This document shows, piece after piece, positions 14,427 to 53,790 of a stretch of DNA of 64,000 nt; position 1 is the stretch's first letter; the number at the start of each line of letters is the position of its first letter. Source of the stretch: Mustelus asterias (lineage: Eukaryota). A model generated the notes under the pieces. That model saw only the letters and a program-made list of their open reading frames with translations. It was not told where the DNA came from and ran no database searches. The stretch is from NCBI RefSeq assembly GCF_964213995.1, contig NC_135818.1, positions 74,772,001 to 74,836,000 of the forward strand, read 5' to 3'. The position numbers and the translations under genes are program-made.

Positions 14427-14722
14427 GGCACAGTGGCACAGTGGTTAGCACTGCTACCTCACCTCGTCAGGGACCTGGGTTCGATTCCCGGTTTGGGTCA
14501 CTGTCTGTGCGGAGTCTGCACGTTCTCCCCGTGTCTGCGTGGGTTTCCTCCGGGTGCTCCGGTTTCCTCTCTCAGCCTGAAAGACGTGCTGGTTAGGTGC
14601 ATTGGCCATGCTAACTTCTCCTTTAGTGTATCCGAACAGGCGCCGGAGTGTGACGACTAGGGGATTTTCACAGTAACCTCACTACAGTGTTAATGTCTGC
14701 CTACTTCTGACACTAATATACT
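14427..14722 (+). mobile_element. V-SINE type B
   Basis: Head, V core, type-B tail. Confidence 0.9.
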
Positions 14723-14724
14723 TA

Positions 14725-14964
14725 AAATTTCCAAGTCGCCACACTCCGGCACCTGTTCGGGTACACTGAGGGAGAATTTAACATGGTTAATGCACCTAAC
14801 CAGCACGTCTTTCAGACTGTGAGAGGAAACCGGAGCACCCGGAGGAAACTCACGCAGACACGGGGAGAACGTGCAAACTCCACACAGACAGTGACCCAAG
14901 CCAGGAATTGAACCTGTATCCTTGGTGCTGTGAGGCTGCAGTGCTAACCACTGTGTCACCATGC
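14725..14964 (-). mobile_element. V-SINE type B, 3'-truncated, tail-to-tail with the previous copy
   Basis: Reverse complement of 14427-14670. Confidence 0.9.
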
Positions 14965-25489: not shown

Positions 25490-25800
25490 GTGTTATAGGG
25501 AGAGGTTGGCCAGGCTAGGACTTTATTCCTTCGAATGTAGGAGAATGAGGGGTGACCTTACTAGGTGTATAAAATCATGAGGGGCTTAGATAGGATGAAC
25601 GCACATCGGCCAGAATTTTACCGGCCCGCCCAACACGGGAATCAGAGTGGCGGAGGGACAGAGCACGGGAAGATCCGTTGACCTAGGTTGGGATCTTACG
25701 GTTACAGGCTGAGCGAGGTCATAAAATCTCGCCTATTGTCTTTTTCCCAGGGAAGGAGAATTGAAAACCAAAGGGCATAGGTTTAAAGTAAGAGGGGAAA
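25490..25800 (+). mobile_element. CR1 3' fragment containing a Harbinger MITE (25608-25734)
   Basis: YRERLARLGLYS..RRMRGDL-type sequence; MITE TIRs GGCCAGAATTTT / AAAATCTCGCC. Confidence 0.8.
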
Positions 25801-25952
25801 GGAGAGGGTGCAGAGTGTTACAGCCACAGCTAAGGTGTCGAGAAAGATCAGCTTAATATATGGTAGGTCCATTCAAAAGTCTGATGGCAGCAGGGAAGAA
25901 GCTGTTCTTGAGTCGGTTGGTACGTGTCCTCAGACTTCTGTACCTTTTTCCA
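25800..25952 (-). mobile_element. Rex1/Babar-like LINE fragment
   Basis: Matches 50020-50175. Confidence 0.75.
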
Positions 25953-26027
25953 GTGGCCGGAATTTTATTGGTTGTTCTTTCCCCCCGCTTTCCAACTGTT
26001 TTTTTTCTCATGCCTGAATTTCAATGC

Positions 26028-26640
26028 TGTGGTGAGCCATTGTTGGTTCCCACCAGGTAGTGCTGAGCCAGGGTCTGGCCAGTACTATGAGTCTGTATAT
26101 ATGTTACTGTTGGGGTTAGGGTTGGGCTGTTCTACATGTTACTGTTGGGGTTAGGGTTGGGCTGTTCTATCTATAATATAGTTCTTATGGTACATCCCAG
26201 TCGGGCTCCGCTTCCTGGGAGAGGTATAAAGGACACTGCTCTGTCTGGGACCCTTTAGTCTGGGATCGTGTATTATATATGGTAGCTCTATTGTTGTAGT
26301 CAATAAAAGCCTTTATTTCCTCGAGTACCTCTAGCCTCGTGAGTTATGTCGCACATCAATTTTATTGACTACAACAATAGAGCTACCATATATAATACAC
26401 GATTCCAGACTAAAGGGTCCCAGACAGAGCAGTGACCTTTATACCTCTCCCAGGAGGCGGAGCCCGACTGGGATGTACCATAAGAACTATATTACAGGTA
26501 GAACAGCCCAACCCTACCCCCAACAGTAACATGTAGAACAGCCCAACCCTAACCCCAACAGTAACATATATACAGACTCATAGTACTGGCCAGACCCTGG
26601 CTCAGCACTACCTGGTGGGAACCAACGATGGTTCACCACA
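26028..26640. mobile_element. Fold-back element: complete Gypsy-type LTR (26028-26358) plus inverted U3-R copy (26360-26640)
   Basis: 281-bp inverted arms, 51-bp loop, TGTGGTGA...TCACCACA ends, TSD AATGC (26023-26027, 26641-26645), TATAAA at 26225, AATAAA at 26302; homologous to the LTR at 41125-41442. Confidence 0.85.
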
Positions 26641-26858
26641 AATGCTCTACCATTTGCGGCTATGCCTTCAGCAGCCCTAAGCACCTAAACCTCTCCACCT
26701 CTCCCTCTTTCTTCCTGTAGTATCTAAAACCTACCTCCTCGCCACCTGCCCCAACACTTCCTTGTGCGACTCGGGTGTCAAATTCTATTTGCTGACACTG
26801 CTGTAAAGGGTCATGGGACATCTTACTCTGTTGAAGGCACTGTGTAAATGCAAGTTGA
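26641..26858 (+). mobile_element. L2-like LINE 3' end (host of the fold-back element)
   Basis: GCCTTCAGC...AAAACCTACCTC...GGCACTGTGTAAATGCAAGTTG. Confidence 0.6.
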
Positions 26859-34289: not shown

Positions 34290-35450
34290 GCAATTTAAGG
34301 AGCTTTGGCTAAGAATCGTTGAGCAAGGGGCTAAGCTACAGACTCTGTGATACATCAGGGAGGGGGAAAATTACGCTAACATCTTTTTTCCTGAAAGTGG
34401 TCACACCTTTAGAATAGGGTTGTCTGATTTGGTCAGTGGTCAGGGACAGAAGGGCCTGACTGCAAGTCAAGCAAGTAAGGAGACTGAGAAGGTAGAAGTG
34501 GCGGAAGCTCAGCCCTTGCAATTGTTCAACAGGTTTGAGGTTTTTGCAGCTTGTATGAGAACAAGAGCTGCAAAGTGGATGAGGCAAAGTGACCATGGCA
34601 CCATGGTACAGGAAGCCATTCAAAGAACAAAGAATAAAGAACAATGAAAATTACAGTACAGGAACAGGCCTTTCGGCCCTCCAAGCCTGCACTGACCATG
34701 CTGCTCGTCTGAACTAAAGCTCCTCACCATTCCGGGGACTGTATCCTCTATTCCCATCCCATTCATGTATTTGTCAAGACTCCCCTTAAAAGTCAATATC
34801 GTATCTGCTTCCACTATCTCCCCCGGCAGCGAGTTCCAGGCACCCGCCGCCCTCTGTGTAAAAAACTTGCCTCGTACATCTCCTTTAAACTTTGCCCCTC
34901 GTACCTTAAACCTATGCCCCCTAGTAATTGACTCTTCCACCCTGGGAAAAAACTTCTGACTATCCACTCTGTCCACACCCCTCATAATCTTGTAGACTTC
35001 TATCAGGTTGCCCCACAACCTCTGTCTTTCCATTGAGAACAAACCAAGTTTCTCCAACCTCTCCTGATAGCTAATGCATTCCACGCCAGGCAACATCCTG
35101 GTAAACCTTTTCTGCACCCTCTCCAAAGCCTCATTCATGCAGAGGGAATGAACAGAAATGTTGTGATGATAGGGGACAGCACAATCAGAGGTATCTACAC
35201 AGTTCTCTGCAGCCAAGAGCATGAATCTAGGCAGTGGTGTTGCATTATTGTTGTCAGGATTTGGGACATCTCCTCTGGGCTGGAGAGAAGCGTGCAGTGA
35301 GAAGGAGAGGATCCACTTGTCATGGTCTGTGTGGGTACCAACAACATAGTTAGGATTAGGAAAGAGATTCTGATGAAGAATTATGATCAGATGGGGCTAA
35401 ATTCAGAAGCAGAAACACAGAGGTAATAATCTCTGGATTATTTTGTAATC
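34290..35450 (+). mobile_element. Decayed CR1 ORF1 (SGNH esterase-like) interrupted by an antisense CR1 3' end
   Basis: PLQLFNRFEVF, VVMIGDSTIRG and VCVGTNNI motifs. Confidence 0.7.
34623..35131 (-). mobile_element. CR1 3' end with 6-bp TSD
   Basis: ALERVQKRFTRMLPG...FFTQRAAGAWNSLP; TSD CATTCA at 34617-34622 and 35132-35137. Confidence 0.9.
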
Positions 35451-35456
35451 CATGGT

Positions 35457-37107
35457 TTTCACCCGCCAGTGGAAACAACTTTCCTGCTGCTATCTTATCT
35501 ATTCCCTTTATAATCTTATATGTTTCTCTAAGATCTCCCCTCATTCTTCTGAATTCCAATAGGTATAGCCCCAGTCTATTCAGTCTCTCCTCATAAGCCA
35601 ACCCTCTCAACTCCGGAATCAACCTAGTGAATCTCCTCTGTACTCCCTCCAGTGCCAGTATATCCTTTCTCAAGTAAGGAGACCAAAACGGTACACAGTA
35701 CTCCAGGTGTGGCCTCTCCAGCACCTTATACAGCTGTGATATAATCTCACTGTTTTTAAACTCCATCCCTCTTGCAATGAAGGACAAAATTCCATTTGCC
35801 TTCTTAATTACCTGCTGCACCTGCAAACCAACTCCTTGAGATGCCTGCACAAGGACACCCAGGTCCCTCTGCACAGCAGCATGCTGCAATTTTTTACCAT
35901 TTAAATAATAGTCCATTTTGCTGTTATTCCTACCAAAATGGATGACCTCACATTTACCAACATTGTACTCCATCTGCCAGACCCTCGCCCACTCACTCAG
36001 ACTATCTATATCCCTTTGCAGACTTTCAGCGTCCTCTCCACACTTTGCTCTTCCACCCATTTTAGTGTCATCTGTGAATTTTGACACGCTACACTTGGTC
36101 CCCAACTCCAAATCATCTATGTAAATCATAAACAATTGCGGTCCCAACACTGATCCCTGAGGCACACCACTAGTCACTGATCGCCAACCAGAAAAACACC
36201 CATTTATCCCCACTCTTTGCTTTCTGTTAGCTAACCAATTCTCTATCCATGCTAATACATTACCCATAACACTGTGCACCTTTATCTTATGTAGCAGTCT
36301 TTGGTGCGGCACCTTGTCAAATGCCTTCTGGAAATCCAGATACATCACATCCACAGGTTCCCCATTTCCACTGTACATGTAATCTTCTCAAAGAATTCCA
36401 CCAAATTAGTCAAACATGACCTGCCTTCATGAACCCATGCTGCGTCTTACCAATGGGACAATTTATATCCAGATGTCTCGCTATTTCTTCCTTGATGATA
36501 GATTCAAGCATTTTCCCTACTACAGAAGTTAAGCTAACCAGCCTATAGTTACCTGCCTTTTGTCTACCTCCTTTTTTAAACAGTGGCGTCACATTTGCTG
36601 TTTTCCAATCTGCGGGAACCACCCCAGAGTCCAGCGAATTTTGGTAAATAACCACTAGTGCATTTGCTATTTCTCCCACCATCTCTTTTAGTACCCTGGG
36701 ATGCATTCCATCAGGACCAGGAGACTTGTCTACCTTTAGCCCCATTAACTTGCCCAACACTACCTCTTTCGTGATAATGATAGTTTCGAGGTCCTCACCT
36801 GCCATAACCTTCCTGTCATTGATTTTTGGCATGTTATTTGTGTCTTCCACTGTGAAGACCGACACAAAATATCTGTTCAATGCCTCGGCCATTTTCTCAT
36901 TTCCAGTTATTACATCCCCCTTCTCATCCTCTAACGGACCAATGTTTACTTTCGTCACTCTTTTTCATTTTATATATTTGCAGAAACTTTTGCTATCTGT
37001 TTTTATATTCTGAGCTAGTTTACACTCATAATCCATCTTACCTTTCTTTATAGCTTTTTTCATGGCTTTCTGCTGACCTTTAAAGATTTCCCAATCCTCT
37101 AGGTTCC
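35457..37107 (-). pseudogene. CR1/HER1-like ORF2 reverse transcriptase, truncated and frameshifted
   Basis: ORFs 36410-36958 (KSPGPDGMHPRVLKE, NYRLVSLTS) and 35356-36378 (YLDFQKAFDKVPH, GVPQGSVLGP, KFTDDTK, RPHLEYC). Confidence 0.95.
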
Positions 37108-41124: not shown

Positions 41125-41875
41125 TGATGCGTGACAATCAAGCACGAGGTACAAGGCTTCAGCAATTGAAGGCTTTTATTGACAAACAATGGAACTATCT
41201 AAACACGAGTACACCATTCCAGACTGGAGGGGTCCCGCCTGAGCAGAGGGTCTTATACCTCTCCCAGGAGGCGGGGCCCGACTGGGATGTGCCATAACAG
41301 CATCCACCACAGGTATATTAATCCCACAGTGTAAACACCCTAGCCCAACAACAACATTATAACAACCCCACAGTGTCAACCCCCTAACCCAACAGCAACA
41401 TTAGAATAACCCCACAGTGGTAACCAATGATGGTTAACCACATTCACCCCTCCTTTGAAAACAAAGGCCGGTGGGGTGCGAAAACAGACTACATATATAC
41501 AAAATCTACAAGTCCAGACGGTCTGGAGGACCGCACCGACGCTGTGACCTCCTCAACACCGGTTGTGACACCGGAGCAGGTGCTTGCGGTGGCGTTCTCT
41601 CCAAATCAGCGTCTGGCTGTCCCCTCGAGGACTCACGGGCCGGTTGACCCTGGTGAAGCGGTGGTGCAGGGGATCCCGGTACCGTCTGTGGTGGCGCCGA
41701 TCTCCGAGTCTCAGGCAAGCTGTACATGGGAGTATAACTGTTATGCACTGGTCCCGGTGCTGACCGCGCCACGTCCGGGGAAGAAATAAGTGATAGGGGA
41801 TTTGTGACAGGGGGTATGGGAGTGACAGGAGTTGCTACATCCCCTGCGGGCGCCAGGTCTCGAATCGAGACTGTG
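41125..41875 (-). mobile_element. Gypsy/Ty3 retrotransposon 3' end: pol C-terminus, PPT and 3' LTR (41125-41442)
   Basis: TVSIRDLAP...PVLRRSQRRCGPPDRLDL*; PPT AAAGGAGGGGTGAA then TGTGGTTAACC...CGCATCA with TATAA and AATAAA. Confidence 0.85.
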
Positions 41876-42887
41876 GGGGGAGGCGGGCCGGGGGGGGGGG
41901 CGGTTGGACCACGCAAAGGTCCATTGACTTCAGGTGGGGTTTTCCAGGTTTGGAGCGAGTGCAGCTAAAAAGTCCTGCCCAATGGATCAGGCAGGTACAA
42001 TTTTGACTTTTAAAAAGCATTTAGACAGTGACATGGGTAAGATTGGTATGGAGGGATATGGACCAAATGCGGGCAATTGGGATTAGCTTAATGGTAAAAA
42101 CTGGGCGGCATGGACAGGTTGGGCCGAAGGGCCTGTTTCCATGCTGTAAACCTCTATGACTCTATAAATTGCAACAAGTAGACTTTTGGACTTAATCAAT
42201 ATTGTGAAGTCTTTTCACTCAATTAGTGAGAAATTGGAAAAGTGTATTTACTCAATCATTGCTAAAATGTTTGGAATCATTTCCCAGGTTGGATAATAAA
42301 TGGAAAAACATTGGGAGACATGCGAAGCATAGCTAAATGCTAGAATAACAATTGTTGCAATGTGTTTTACAATGCAATGCTGATTTCTGGAGAACAGTCC
42401 CTGGGTGCTTCAATCCCAGCATTTGCATGTTAACCTCGTGACATTTTTCAACAGGCGCTGGGTAGAAGCAGAACTGATGTGTCCAGGAATGACATATGAG
42501 GCCCCTTTTCTACTGTTGGTGCAACATCAGTGAAGCACTTTATATTTCTAAATGCAGTTGATGGCGAGAGAGCCATCTGTCTGATGACATTTGCAGCTTT
42601 CAAATGTGATTCCTTTAAGGTACTTGTCCATTCTCATGCTCTAATTTAGCGGAGTTCACTTGTTAGTTCTCATTAAGGTTCAGTATACTTGGTTCCCGGC
42701 AGGAGCTCTCACCAGGAGTAACAGTGCATATGAATGAACACTATTTGGTTTCAACTTCAATAAACTCTGTTGTGTAAATCTTTCACACTATTGTCACACT
42801 AGCACCAAAACATCATTTTCCAGATAGCACTGTATCTTTAGCAGCCCGGTCCCTAGTTCAGCTTGAATTCCTGGCTCACCAGTTATA

Positions 42888-52639: not shown

Positions 52640-52950
52640 AAAGTTAAAGTTTATTTATCACTGTCACAGGTAGGCTTGCATTCACACTGCAATGAAGTTA
52701 ATGTGAAAATCCCCGAGTCGCCACACTCCAGCACCTATTCGGGTACACTGAGGGGAATTTAGTATGGCCAGTGCACCTAACCAGCACATCTTTGGACTGT
52801 GGGACGAAACCGGAGCACCCAGAGGAAACACACGCATACAGAGTGAGAACGTGCAAACTCCACACAGACAGTGACCCAAGCCGGGAATCGAACCCAGGTC
52901 CCTGGTGCTGTGAGGCAGCAGTGCTAACCACTGTGCCAACATGCCACCAT
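52640..52950 (-). mobile_element. V-SINE type B
   Basis: Full-length. Confidence 0.9.
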
Positions 52951-53790
52951 ACAGAAGAGTCTAAGATCATCTAAACTTAGTAACCAGATTTGGTTTATAG
53001 ATTAAATAGTTCTGGGCTTCACAGAATGGAAAAGGAAAGTTGAATGTGTGCTGTAAGCCTTTGGAATTCGGCACATTGTATCATAAACTCCAATGCTACA
53101 TAAGAAGAACTGTGGGAGACTGTTGGCCTAGTTTGAGGTCAACGACCACGTAGATTGGGCAGATAAGAGACATGTGTGTGCAAGAACAGATGTCTACAAC
53201 ATTCACTGAAAAGTCTTGTCTGGAACAAAAATCCCCTAAAAAGCTGTTATGCAAAAAAAAACTTTCAGTGTGGTTAACAAGGTTTGGTTTCTCTTGAGTT
53301 GGTTTGGTTTCTCTTGAGTTTTTTGCATTCATCAATGTGAAGGGAAAACAGAGCCAGAGAATGGAACATTGGAGCTCTTATCTACATGGCATCTCATCTC
53401 AATGAAAGGATCCTGCAGAGGTCAGGCTCATTACAGAGATGGTTTCAATCCCCCACCCACTTTACAAAGCACGAGCACCTCCATGTACTTGCCCCTCACT
53501 CAAACTCAAAAAACCCAATCTACATGGCCGTTGACTTCAAACTAGGCCAACAGTCTCCCACAGTCCTTCTTACATAGCATTGGAGTTTATGATACAATGT
53601 GCCGAATTCCAAATGCTCACAGCACTCATTCAACTTTCCTTTCCCACTCTGTGAAGCCCAGAACTATTTAATCTATAAACCAAATCTGGTTACTGAGTTT
53701 AGATGATGTTCGACTCTTCAGTGTGGTGGCACAGTGCAGCCTCACAGCACCAGGGGTCCGTGTTCGATTCCTGGCTTGGGTCACCATCTG

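What the first reader, a model, noticed from the sequence alone, without database searches (positions are those of the whole stretch)
26028..26640. LTR-derived fold-back element inserted as one unit (two outward U3 ends, 5-bp TSD)
Seen: two 281-bp inverted arms (26028-26308, 26360-26640) around a 51-bp loop, with about 8 substitutions by manual count and no indels. The ends are TGTGGTGA...TCACCACA, flanked by the direct repeat AATGC, and the L2-like host sequence rejoins across the site. 26028-26358 is a complete LTR (TG...CA, TATAAA, AATAAA) homologous to the Gypsy 3' LTR at 41125-41442. The inverted copy begins exactly at the poly(A) signal, so the loop is the U5-containing end. Known: Gypsy integrases join TG...CA ends and make 4-6 bp TSDs, and ordinary solo LTRs are not palindromic. 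Inference: the palindrome existed before integration and was inserted using two U3 att ends. It could be a one-off fold-back product of reverse transcription, or a MITE-like non-autonomous family mobilised by an LTR-type integrase. It carries convergent TATA boxes and could make a long dsRNA hairpin.
Basis: partly seen in the sequence, partly recalled or inferred. Interest (0 to 1): 0.8.

Follow-up and report, generated by a model that had tools for sequence, protein, structure and literature searches.

The report
Folded-back retrotransposon end inserted whole
A 613-base DNA palindrome is one end-repeat of an abundant jumping gene joined to a mirror copy of itself and inserted as one piece, most likely a rare copying accident caused by the element's primer site pairing with its own repeat.

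Summary
Confirmed: two 281-bp inverted arms (8 substitutions, no indels), a 51-bp loop and a 5-bp TSD. The left 331 bp is a complete Ty3/Gypsy-type LTR of a very abundant family; the 3' LTR at 41125-41442 is only a ~68% relative. New clue: in another species, the one laid contig covering U5 matches 14 bases past the LTR end into the junction, then diverges (chance <=6e-4). So the family's own post-LTR leader probably complements the 13 nt ending in its poly(A) signal, a self-primer-like site. Best reading (0.58): plus-strand cDNA ending in that site folded back, was extended to the U3 end, became double-stranded and was integrated through two U3 ends. That contig's letters were not visible, the hairpin-to-duplex step is inferred, and the locus itself was not confirmed in independent data. 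A MITE-like family is not supported: junction copies are at most ~0.3-0.6% of LTR depth (rough). The scan found a similar LTR palindrome in a fungus, and candidate self-priming animal Gypsy elements, on other DNA (unchecked notes). Ten paper searches listed no description of this structure.

The parts
26023..26027 (+). left copy of 5-bp target-site duplication (AATGC)
26028..26358 (+). complete Ty3/Gypsy-type LTR (TG...CA; U3-R-U5)
   Evidence: end-to-end alignment with 3' LTR 41442-41125 (68%); boundary 26028 shared by X1 record 7
26028..26308 (+). left arm of the palindrome (U3 and R up to the poly(A) signal)
26101..26170 (+). 35-bp tandem duplication inside U3, mirrored in the right arm
26225..26230 (+). 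TATA box; initiator-like site about 32 nt downstream (A 26257) gives the inferred transcription start
   Evidence: same spacing in the 41125 LTR; start site inferred, not mapped
26296..26308 (+). 13-nt R segment ending in the poly(A) signal (AATAAA 26302-26307); inferred pairing partner of the primer site
   Evidence: mirror of 26360-26372
26309..26359 (+). 51-nt loop: end of R, U5 to CA 26358, and one spacer base A 26359
26359..26372 (+). junction; inferred copy of the family's post-LTR leader (1-nt spacer plus 13-nt primer-site-like complement)
   Evidence: X8 record 32 aligns ungapped 26244-26372, then runs on 212 nt unlike; chance estimate; its letters were not shown
26360..26640 (-). right arm: inverted copy of R-U3, ending exactly at the U3 terminus
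26641..26645 (+). right copy of the target-site duplication (AATGC)
41125..41442 (-). 3' LTR of a related Gypsy subfamily (reference, not part of the element)
41443..41456 (-). polypurine tract before that 3' LTR
41509..41880 (-). truncated C-terminal tail of a Gypsy pol/integrase
   Evidence: (E 2.2e-4 to a stingray protein)

Best explanation
A dead, probably rare by-product of reverse transcription of an abundant shark-type Ty3/Gypsy family. (1, shown) It is a complete LTR, one spacer base and an inverted R-U3 copy inside one 5-bp TSD. (2, inferred from one contig) In intact family members the bases just after the 5' LTR complement the 13 nt that end in the LTR's own poly(A) signal: a self-primer-like site that could also hide the 5' poly(A) signal. 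(3, inferred) Plus-strand cDNA (U3-R-U5 plus a copy of that site) therefore ends in a tail that pairs with its own R; reverse transcriptase extended it back to the U3 terminus, which fixes both the axis and the exact outer end. (4, inferred, weakest step) The fold-back became a linear duplex with two U3 ends, either as a pair of such strands or as a full-length cDNA with the inverted tail that later collapsed by LTR-LTR recombination. (5, inferred from termini and TSD) The family's integrase inserted it. Without an internal region or PPT it cannot retrotranspose again; it has since decayed by 2.9% between arms. If transcribed from either arm it would form a long hairpin against its own family.
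For: Exact U3 termini plus TSD (chance ~1e-3). Geometry of 1 nt spacer and 13 nt complement meets the operational self-primer criterion of PMC6317226 (>=10 bp complement starting 0-5 bp after the LTR). Last-bin depth in X8 (0.4) equals exactly one base of that contig; read the same way X1, X3, X5 give 4.9, 6.4 and 11% of U5 depth, a plausible share of 5' LTRs. Both arms share letters that are in the minority in the family (26256: other letter in 89% of X1 depth; 26062: 57%), so they come from one template. About half of Tf1 cDNA keeps a single-stranded PBS tail that anneals to complementary DNA (PMC11042837); self-priming fold-back of strong-stop DNA is a known side reaction for the minus strand of HIV-1 (PMC6088434).
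Against: The letters of X8 record 32 were not shown: 7 differences in 129 nt, only 3 placed, and the 212-nt remainder is unseen, so it is not proven to be the internal region. Its alignment stops one base before 26373, the mirror of 26295 where that contig has a variant, so it might be a second fold-back or nested junction instead (although no strand-changing joint and no run over the end is listed for X8). Only 32 of 64,728 pieces and 40 of 88 difference rows were displayed. The inferred start site (about 26257) puts the paired segment at +40 to +52, not at +1 to +11 as in Tf1. A fold-back yields a hairpin with one duplex end; the route to two ends is not shown. Differences are lopsided, 7 private to the left arm against 1 to the right (p 0.07; 3 of the 7 polarised only with the distant LTR, 1 only from loose ends). 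The best runs hold only 0.54 and 0.51 of the words, between the family-only (0.37-0.45) and empty-site (0.67-0.71) expectations: the locus is not independently confirmed.
Confidence: 0.58

Rival explanations
1. Post-insertion inverted duplication: a normal solo LTR or provirus was already here, and a replication or repair template switch copied R-U3 backwards and returned at the LTR/TSD boundary.
For: A 26359 could be the first base of the TSD; the two ends share CA and 5 of their last 7 letters; a self-complementary leader would also offer the first switch in a provirus; arms come from one template.
Against: The second switch must fall exactly on the U3 terminus and resume exactly at the TSD, which integrase explains without coincidence; mutations private to the left arm are not carried into the right arm, so any copying was early.
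Confidence: 0.13
2. One-ended auto-integration: integrase joined the U5 CA end into the R region of the other LTR in opposite orientation, the product was integrated through two U3 ends and later reduced by LTR-LTR recombination.
For: The LTR is complete to its CA at the junction; auto-integration into the opposite strand is documented for LTR retrotransposons (PMC7197481 passages).
Against: Does not explain the extra base 26359 or the 14-nt run-on of X8 record 32; the documented products are circles with scattered target sites.
Confidence: 0.12
3. A small non-autonomous TIR family: the palindrome arose once and is re-mobilised as DNA by a Ginger-like transposase or by the Gypsy integrase.
For: Termini fit the TGTNR pattern shared by Ginger and Gypsy; if all last-bin depth came from junction contigs it would be 961, 96 and 28 in X1, X3, X5, above the depth of single contigs (about 25 in X1), so some tens of copies are not excluded.
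Against: That ceiling is only 0.27-0.63% of U5 depth, and in X8 no contig passes 26372; one copy in 64 kb; TSD is 5 bp, not the 4-bp Ginger1/Ginger2 type; no excising enzyme was shown.
Confidence: 0.08
4. Assembly or chimeric-read artefact.
For: No listed contig bridges either outer junction or the inner junction by 31 nt on both sides; no genome is held.
Against: Arms differ at 8 sites, at 3 of which the left arm has a letter nearly absent from the family; a fold-back chimera gives identical arms and would not resume at a 5-bp duplication.
Confidence: 0.04

Closest known systems
Solo LTRs of Ty3/Gypsy (Metaviridae) elements; here a compact PR-RT-RH-IN clade with members in rays and catsharks
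   Same: TG...CA LTR with TATA box and AATAAA, 5-bp TSD, very high copy family
   Different: The TSD flanks two U3 ends; 282 extra bases (spacer plus inverted R-U3) follow U5
Tf1/Tf2 and the Tf1/sushi self-priming group (PMC7175516, PMC6317226, PMC11042837; passages read)
   Same: Inferred complement of an LTR segment directly after U5; a PBS tail on plus-strand cDNA that can anneal
   Different: Paired segment would be the poly(A) signal inside R, not the first 11 nt; no chromodomain among the Pfam lists of 120 relatives; self-priming untested here; integrated fold-back products not seen in the passages read
Self-primed strong-stop hairpins of HIV-1 (PMC6088434, passages)
   Same: Strong-stop DNA folds back and is extended by reverse transcriptase
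   Different: Described for the minus strand in vitro as a dead end; here plus-strand geometry, and the product was integrated
Ginger1/Ginger2-Tdd DNA transposons and their non-autonomous copies (PMC2836005, passages)
   Same: TGTNR...CA inverted termini of about 280 bp, Gypsy-type integrase chemistry; that paper proposes TIRs arose from LTRs in opposite orientation and calls the route unclear
   Different: No transposase, 5-bp TSD of other sequence, TIRs are recognisably U3-R, no evidence of excision or of a family
Auto-integration inversion circles (PMC7197481, passages)
   Same: LTR end joined to inverted element sequence
   Different: Those are circles with dispersed junctions, not chromosomal insertions with a TSD
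Head-to-head mini-LTR palindrome in a fungus (scan note e1-7146264, unchecked)
   Same: Two inverted LTR pieces inside one 5-bp TSD, similar size
   Different: Other kingdom and element type; I could not inspect it

Membership tests
Ty3/Gypsy LTR (origin of the sequence) | TG...CA termini, TATA box, AATAAA | tested here: met
Ty3/Gypsy LTR (origin of the sequence) | homology to an LTR preceded by a PPT and a Gypsy pol end | tested here: met
   68% to 41125-41442; remnant hits P0001 at E 2.2e-4; its relatives are PR-RT-RH-IN proteins, best solved match Ty3 Gag-Pol. The link is two-step and the first step is weak.
ordinary solo LTR | TSD directly flanks U3 and U5 of one LTR | tested here: not met
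   TSD flanks U3 and inverted U3; U5 is internal
Tf1/sushi-type self-priming elements | >=10-bp complement of the LTR starting 0-5 bp after the 5' LTR | tested here: inconclusive
   geometry 13 bp / 1 bp; one contig of X8 runs 14 nt past the LTR end, letters not shown
Tf1/sushi-type self-priming elements | primer is the first 11 nt of the transcript, released by RNase H | not testable with these tools
   TATA and initiator-like spacing suggest +40 to +52 instead; needs start-site mapping
Tf1/sushi-type self-priming elements | chromovirus lineage (chromodomain integrase) | tested here: not met
   0 of 120 listed relatives carry a chromodomain accession (accession recalled); no tree was built
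Ginger / non-autonomous Ginger | TIRs with TGTNR termini | tested here: met
   (pattern is shared with Gypsy LTRs)
Ginger / non-autonomous Ginger | 4-bp TSD (CCGG/CCGT, or RTATAY target); 5 bp only in TDD-4/5 | tested here: not met
   5-bp AATGC
Ginger / non-autonomous Ginger | TIRs shared with a transposase-coding partner | not testable with these tools
   no genome held
MITE | many dispersed copies with the same structure and distinct TSDs | tested here: inconclusive
   1 copy in the window; ceiling 0.27-0.63% of U5 depth in 3 of 4 runs and none past 26372 in the fourth; depth is not a copy number
DIRS1-like elements | inverted terminal repeats without TSD, tyrosine recombinase (recalled) | tested here: not met
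   5-bp TSD and Gypsy-type LTR

The most novel reading that the evidence does not exclude
LTR retrotransposons whose primer site pairs with their own LTR repeatedly shed integrase-competent, two-U3-ended palindromes with a fixed axis. These would be a built-in route from LTRs to terminal inverted repeats (the unexplained step in the proposed LTR-to-Ginger transition), a seed for MITE-like families, and ready-made hairpin loci that silence the parent family. This shark-type family would hold several to tens of independent examples.
Probability: 0.25. Interest if true: 0.75.

Novelty: new variant of a known kind. Interest (0 to 1): 0.5.

Why it matters
It looks like a genomic fossil of a reverse-transcription side reaction usually regarded as a dead end, showing that a Gypsy integrase can insert a substrate with two U3 ends. 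It points to a primer site that pairs with the element's own poly(A) signal in a vertebrate non-chromovirus Gypsy family. PMC2836005 calls the conversion of LTRs into TIRs unclear and suggests two chance insertions in opposite orientation; a primer-driven fold-back would do it in one step, and this can be tested by counting palindromes and their axes in self-priming versus tRNA-primed families. If it is a single accident, the biological effect is small.

Tried and rejected
No genome is held for this window, so copies could not be counted. Exact LTR patterns: 0 hits in metagenome and viral contigs; a second pattern gave 15 loci, 15 of 15 with matches of only 20-33 nt, treated as chance. Protein-led locus searches for the clade's 5' LTR and primer site: 0 of 12 and 0 of 36 candidates in viral contigs, 1 of 214 in genome contigs, and that locus had no tblastn hit to two full-length pol proteins. 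Pfam: 0 families for 2 of 2 proteins. Rfam: 2 sub-threshold matches to one miRNA family, due to the hairpin. Runs: 20 listed, no RNA holder listed; I laid 4 of 20; the small-share runs that I did not lay are no evidence. The stretch laid (25700-26394) held only 35 nt of the right arm and none of the right flank, so an empty-site skip could not appear. No contig covered 25964-26011 in 4 of 4 runs, which the tool says proves nothing. Host-site continuity: no window copy spans the joined flanks. My first reading (integrase auto-integration, 55%) was lowered. A tRNA-type PBS with partial complementarity was considered; a recalled PBS motif was not found in any listed paper and it remains possible inside the best explanation. 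Two nested independent insertions were rejected because they cannot leave one TSD around two U3 ends and the arms share minority letters. The mirror look-up used a wrong constant and its letters were discarded; mirror positions are 52668 minus the position, from the arm coordinates. Earlier-finding look-ups: empty; one search gave an unrelated prokaryotic MITE.

Full report
1. Observation. The window holds arms at 26028-26308 and 26360-26640, 281 nt each, 51 nt apart, the longest of 576 inverted pairs. They differ at 8 positions with no indel (JC 0.029). AATGC flanks both ends; chance about 1e-3. The RNA folds at -567 kcal/mol, z -56 against 20 shuffles. There is one copy in the 64 kb. The claim that L2-like host sequence rejoins could not be tested: no other copy in the window spans the joined flanks. 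It agrees with my recollection of shark L2 ends, which is recall only.

2. What the sequence is. 26028-26358 aligns end to end with the minus-strand LTR at 41442-41125, at 68%. That LTR follows a polypurine tract and a truncated proline-rich ORF. The ORF hits a stingray protein (1 hit among 6,360 candidates, E 2.2e-4) whose 566 relatives at E<=1e-20 (120 listed) carry protease, RT, RNase H and integrase domains and include ray and catshark proteins. One of them has Ty3 Gag-Pol as best solved match (E 6e-63). So the palindrome is built from a Ty3/Gypsy-type LTR of a related subfamily; the exact clade was not placed. TATAAA is at 26225, an initiator-like site near 26257 and AATAAA at 26302. The junction reads LTR end (CA 26358), one base (A 26359), then the complement of 26308 backwards.

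3. Public runs. No genome is held. Twenty runs hold part of 25900-26800, the best 0.54 of 79 words. Expected shares are about 1 for the whole locus, 0.67-0.71 for an empty site with family words, and 0.37-0.45 for family words only, so the locus itself is not shown in them. I laid 4 of 20 runs (three organisms, contigs only) on 25700-26394 at 88% likeness: 36,634, 18,860, 9,105 and 99 records. The tool showed 40 of 88 difference rows, 24 of 637 loose ends and 32 of 64,728 pieces. Results: (a) summed depth over the LTR is 1e5-1e6 in X1 against about 20-35 for most listed single contigs, so the family is very abundant (rough; depth is not a copy number). (b) X1 record 7 starts exactly at 26028. 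(c) At 26170, 26212 and 26233 at least 99.8% of X1 depth has the right arm's letter; at 26151 the right arm's letter is not listed. With the distant LTR and loose ends the split is 7 left to 1 right (p 0.07). (d) Both arms share minority letters at 26256 and 26062, so they come from one template. (e) No strand-changing joint is listed. A random flank matches 10 or more of those 14 letters with p 6e-4. (g) Depth in the last bin (752, 75, 22, 0.4) can be read as contigs that stop at 26372 (4.9, 6.4, 11% of U5 depth; exact for X8) or as true junction contigs (at most 0.27-0.63%). The table cannot separate these for X1, X3, X5.

4. Mechanism. Result (f) says that LTR end plus the first 14 junction bases exists without the palindrome in another species. 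The simplest reading is that it is the normal 5' LTR plus leader: one spacer base and 13 nt complementary to 26296-26308, the segment ending in the poly(A) signal. This meets the operational self-primer criterion of PMC6317226. In Tf1 the primer is the first 11 nt of the RNA (PMC7175516) and about half of the cDNA keeps a single-stranded PBS tail that can anneal to complementary DNA (PMC11042837). A plus strand U3-R-U5-spacer-site thus ends in a tail that pairs with its own R; extension runs to the U3 terminus, where the template ends. This predicts the observed axis, the extra base, the complete U5 in the loop and the exact outer end. Self-priming of strong-stop DNA is known for the HIV-1 minus strand as a dead end (PMC6088434). 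What is not shown: the letters of record 32, whether the site primes or only hides the poly(A) signal, and how the hairpin became a two-ended duplex. Against: the inferred start site puts the segment at +40 to +52; record 32 stops next to 26373, the mirror of one of its own variants, so it could be a second inverted junction; the 7:1 asymmetry is unexplained. Confidence 0.58. Rivals: post-insertion template switch 0.13, one-ended auto-integration 0.12 (circles are the documented product, PMC7197481), re-mobilised TIR family 0.08, artefact 0.04.

5. Comparison. It works like an aberrant cDNA of a self-priming LTR element; it is not an ordinary solo LTR, not a Ginger (TSD differs, no transposase; PMC2836005; PMC6839031), not DIRS-like (recalled features), and not shown to be a MITE. 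PMC2836005 states that the route from LTR retrotransposon to DNA transposon is unclear and suggests two LTRs in opposite orientation. [quoted passage not shown] PMC5445492 describes a different hairpin at the primer site of fungal Copia. PMC3601003 gave LTR motif conventions. PMC6238403 had nothing on primer sites. For all eleven papers I saw matched passages only, no whole text and no supplements; supplements and Repbase-type entries may describe this family's primer site. Ten searches (listings and abstract starts) showed no paper describing a TSD-flanked fold-back LTR with two U3 ends; the library lacks most subscription papers.

6. Earlier scan notes (unchecked leads, not support). e1-7146264 describes a similar head-to-head LTR palindrome in a fungus. 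e1-7857539 and e1-8031974 describe animal Gypsy elements whose primer site pairs with their own poly(A) signal. I saw these two after recording the same inference (notes); a sequence look-up did not tie them to this clade.

7. Verdict. Real, cleanly bounded, and best explained as a rare fold-back insertion that exposes a self-complementary primer site. New variant of a known kind; interest 0.5. The bold reading, a recurrent primer-driven LTR-to-TIR conversion, has probability 0.25 and interest 0.75.

Noticed in passing
window 52942-53159 and 53514-53731: A second long inverted pair: 218-nt arms, 16 mismatches, 354-nt spacer, each arm reaching into the 5' end of an outward-facing SINE. Old inverted duplication or a TIR element; no TSD determined.
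   Followed up: partly
window 41125-41960 (-): 5'-truncated Gypsy remnant: integrase tail, PPT and complete 3' LTR, abutting SINE sequence after CA; no matching TSD seen at the truncated end.
   Followed up: partly
window 14428-14964: Two SINE copies tail to tail, 241-nt arms with 34 mismatches, 55 nt apart; ordinary independent insertions likely.
   Followed up: partly
window 35356-36964 (-): LINE (CR1/L2-like by recall) ORF2 pieces of 343 and 184 aa, broken into two frames.
   Followed up: no
window 26028-26308 versus 26360-26640: Seven of eight arm differences appear private to the left arm (p 0.07); could be chance, biased repair of the hairpin, or conversion of the right arm by family members.
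   Followed up: partly
window 26101-26170: 35-bp tandem duplication in U3; the family is highly variable here in all four runs.
   Followed up: no
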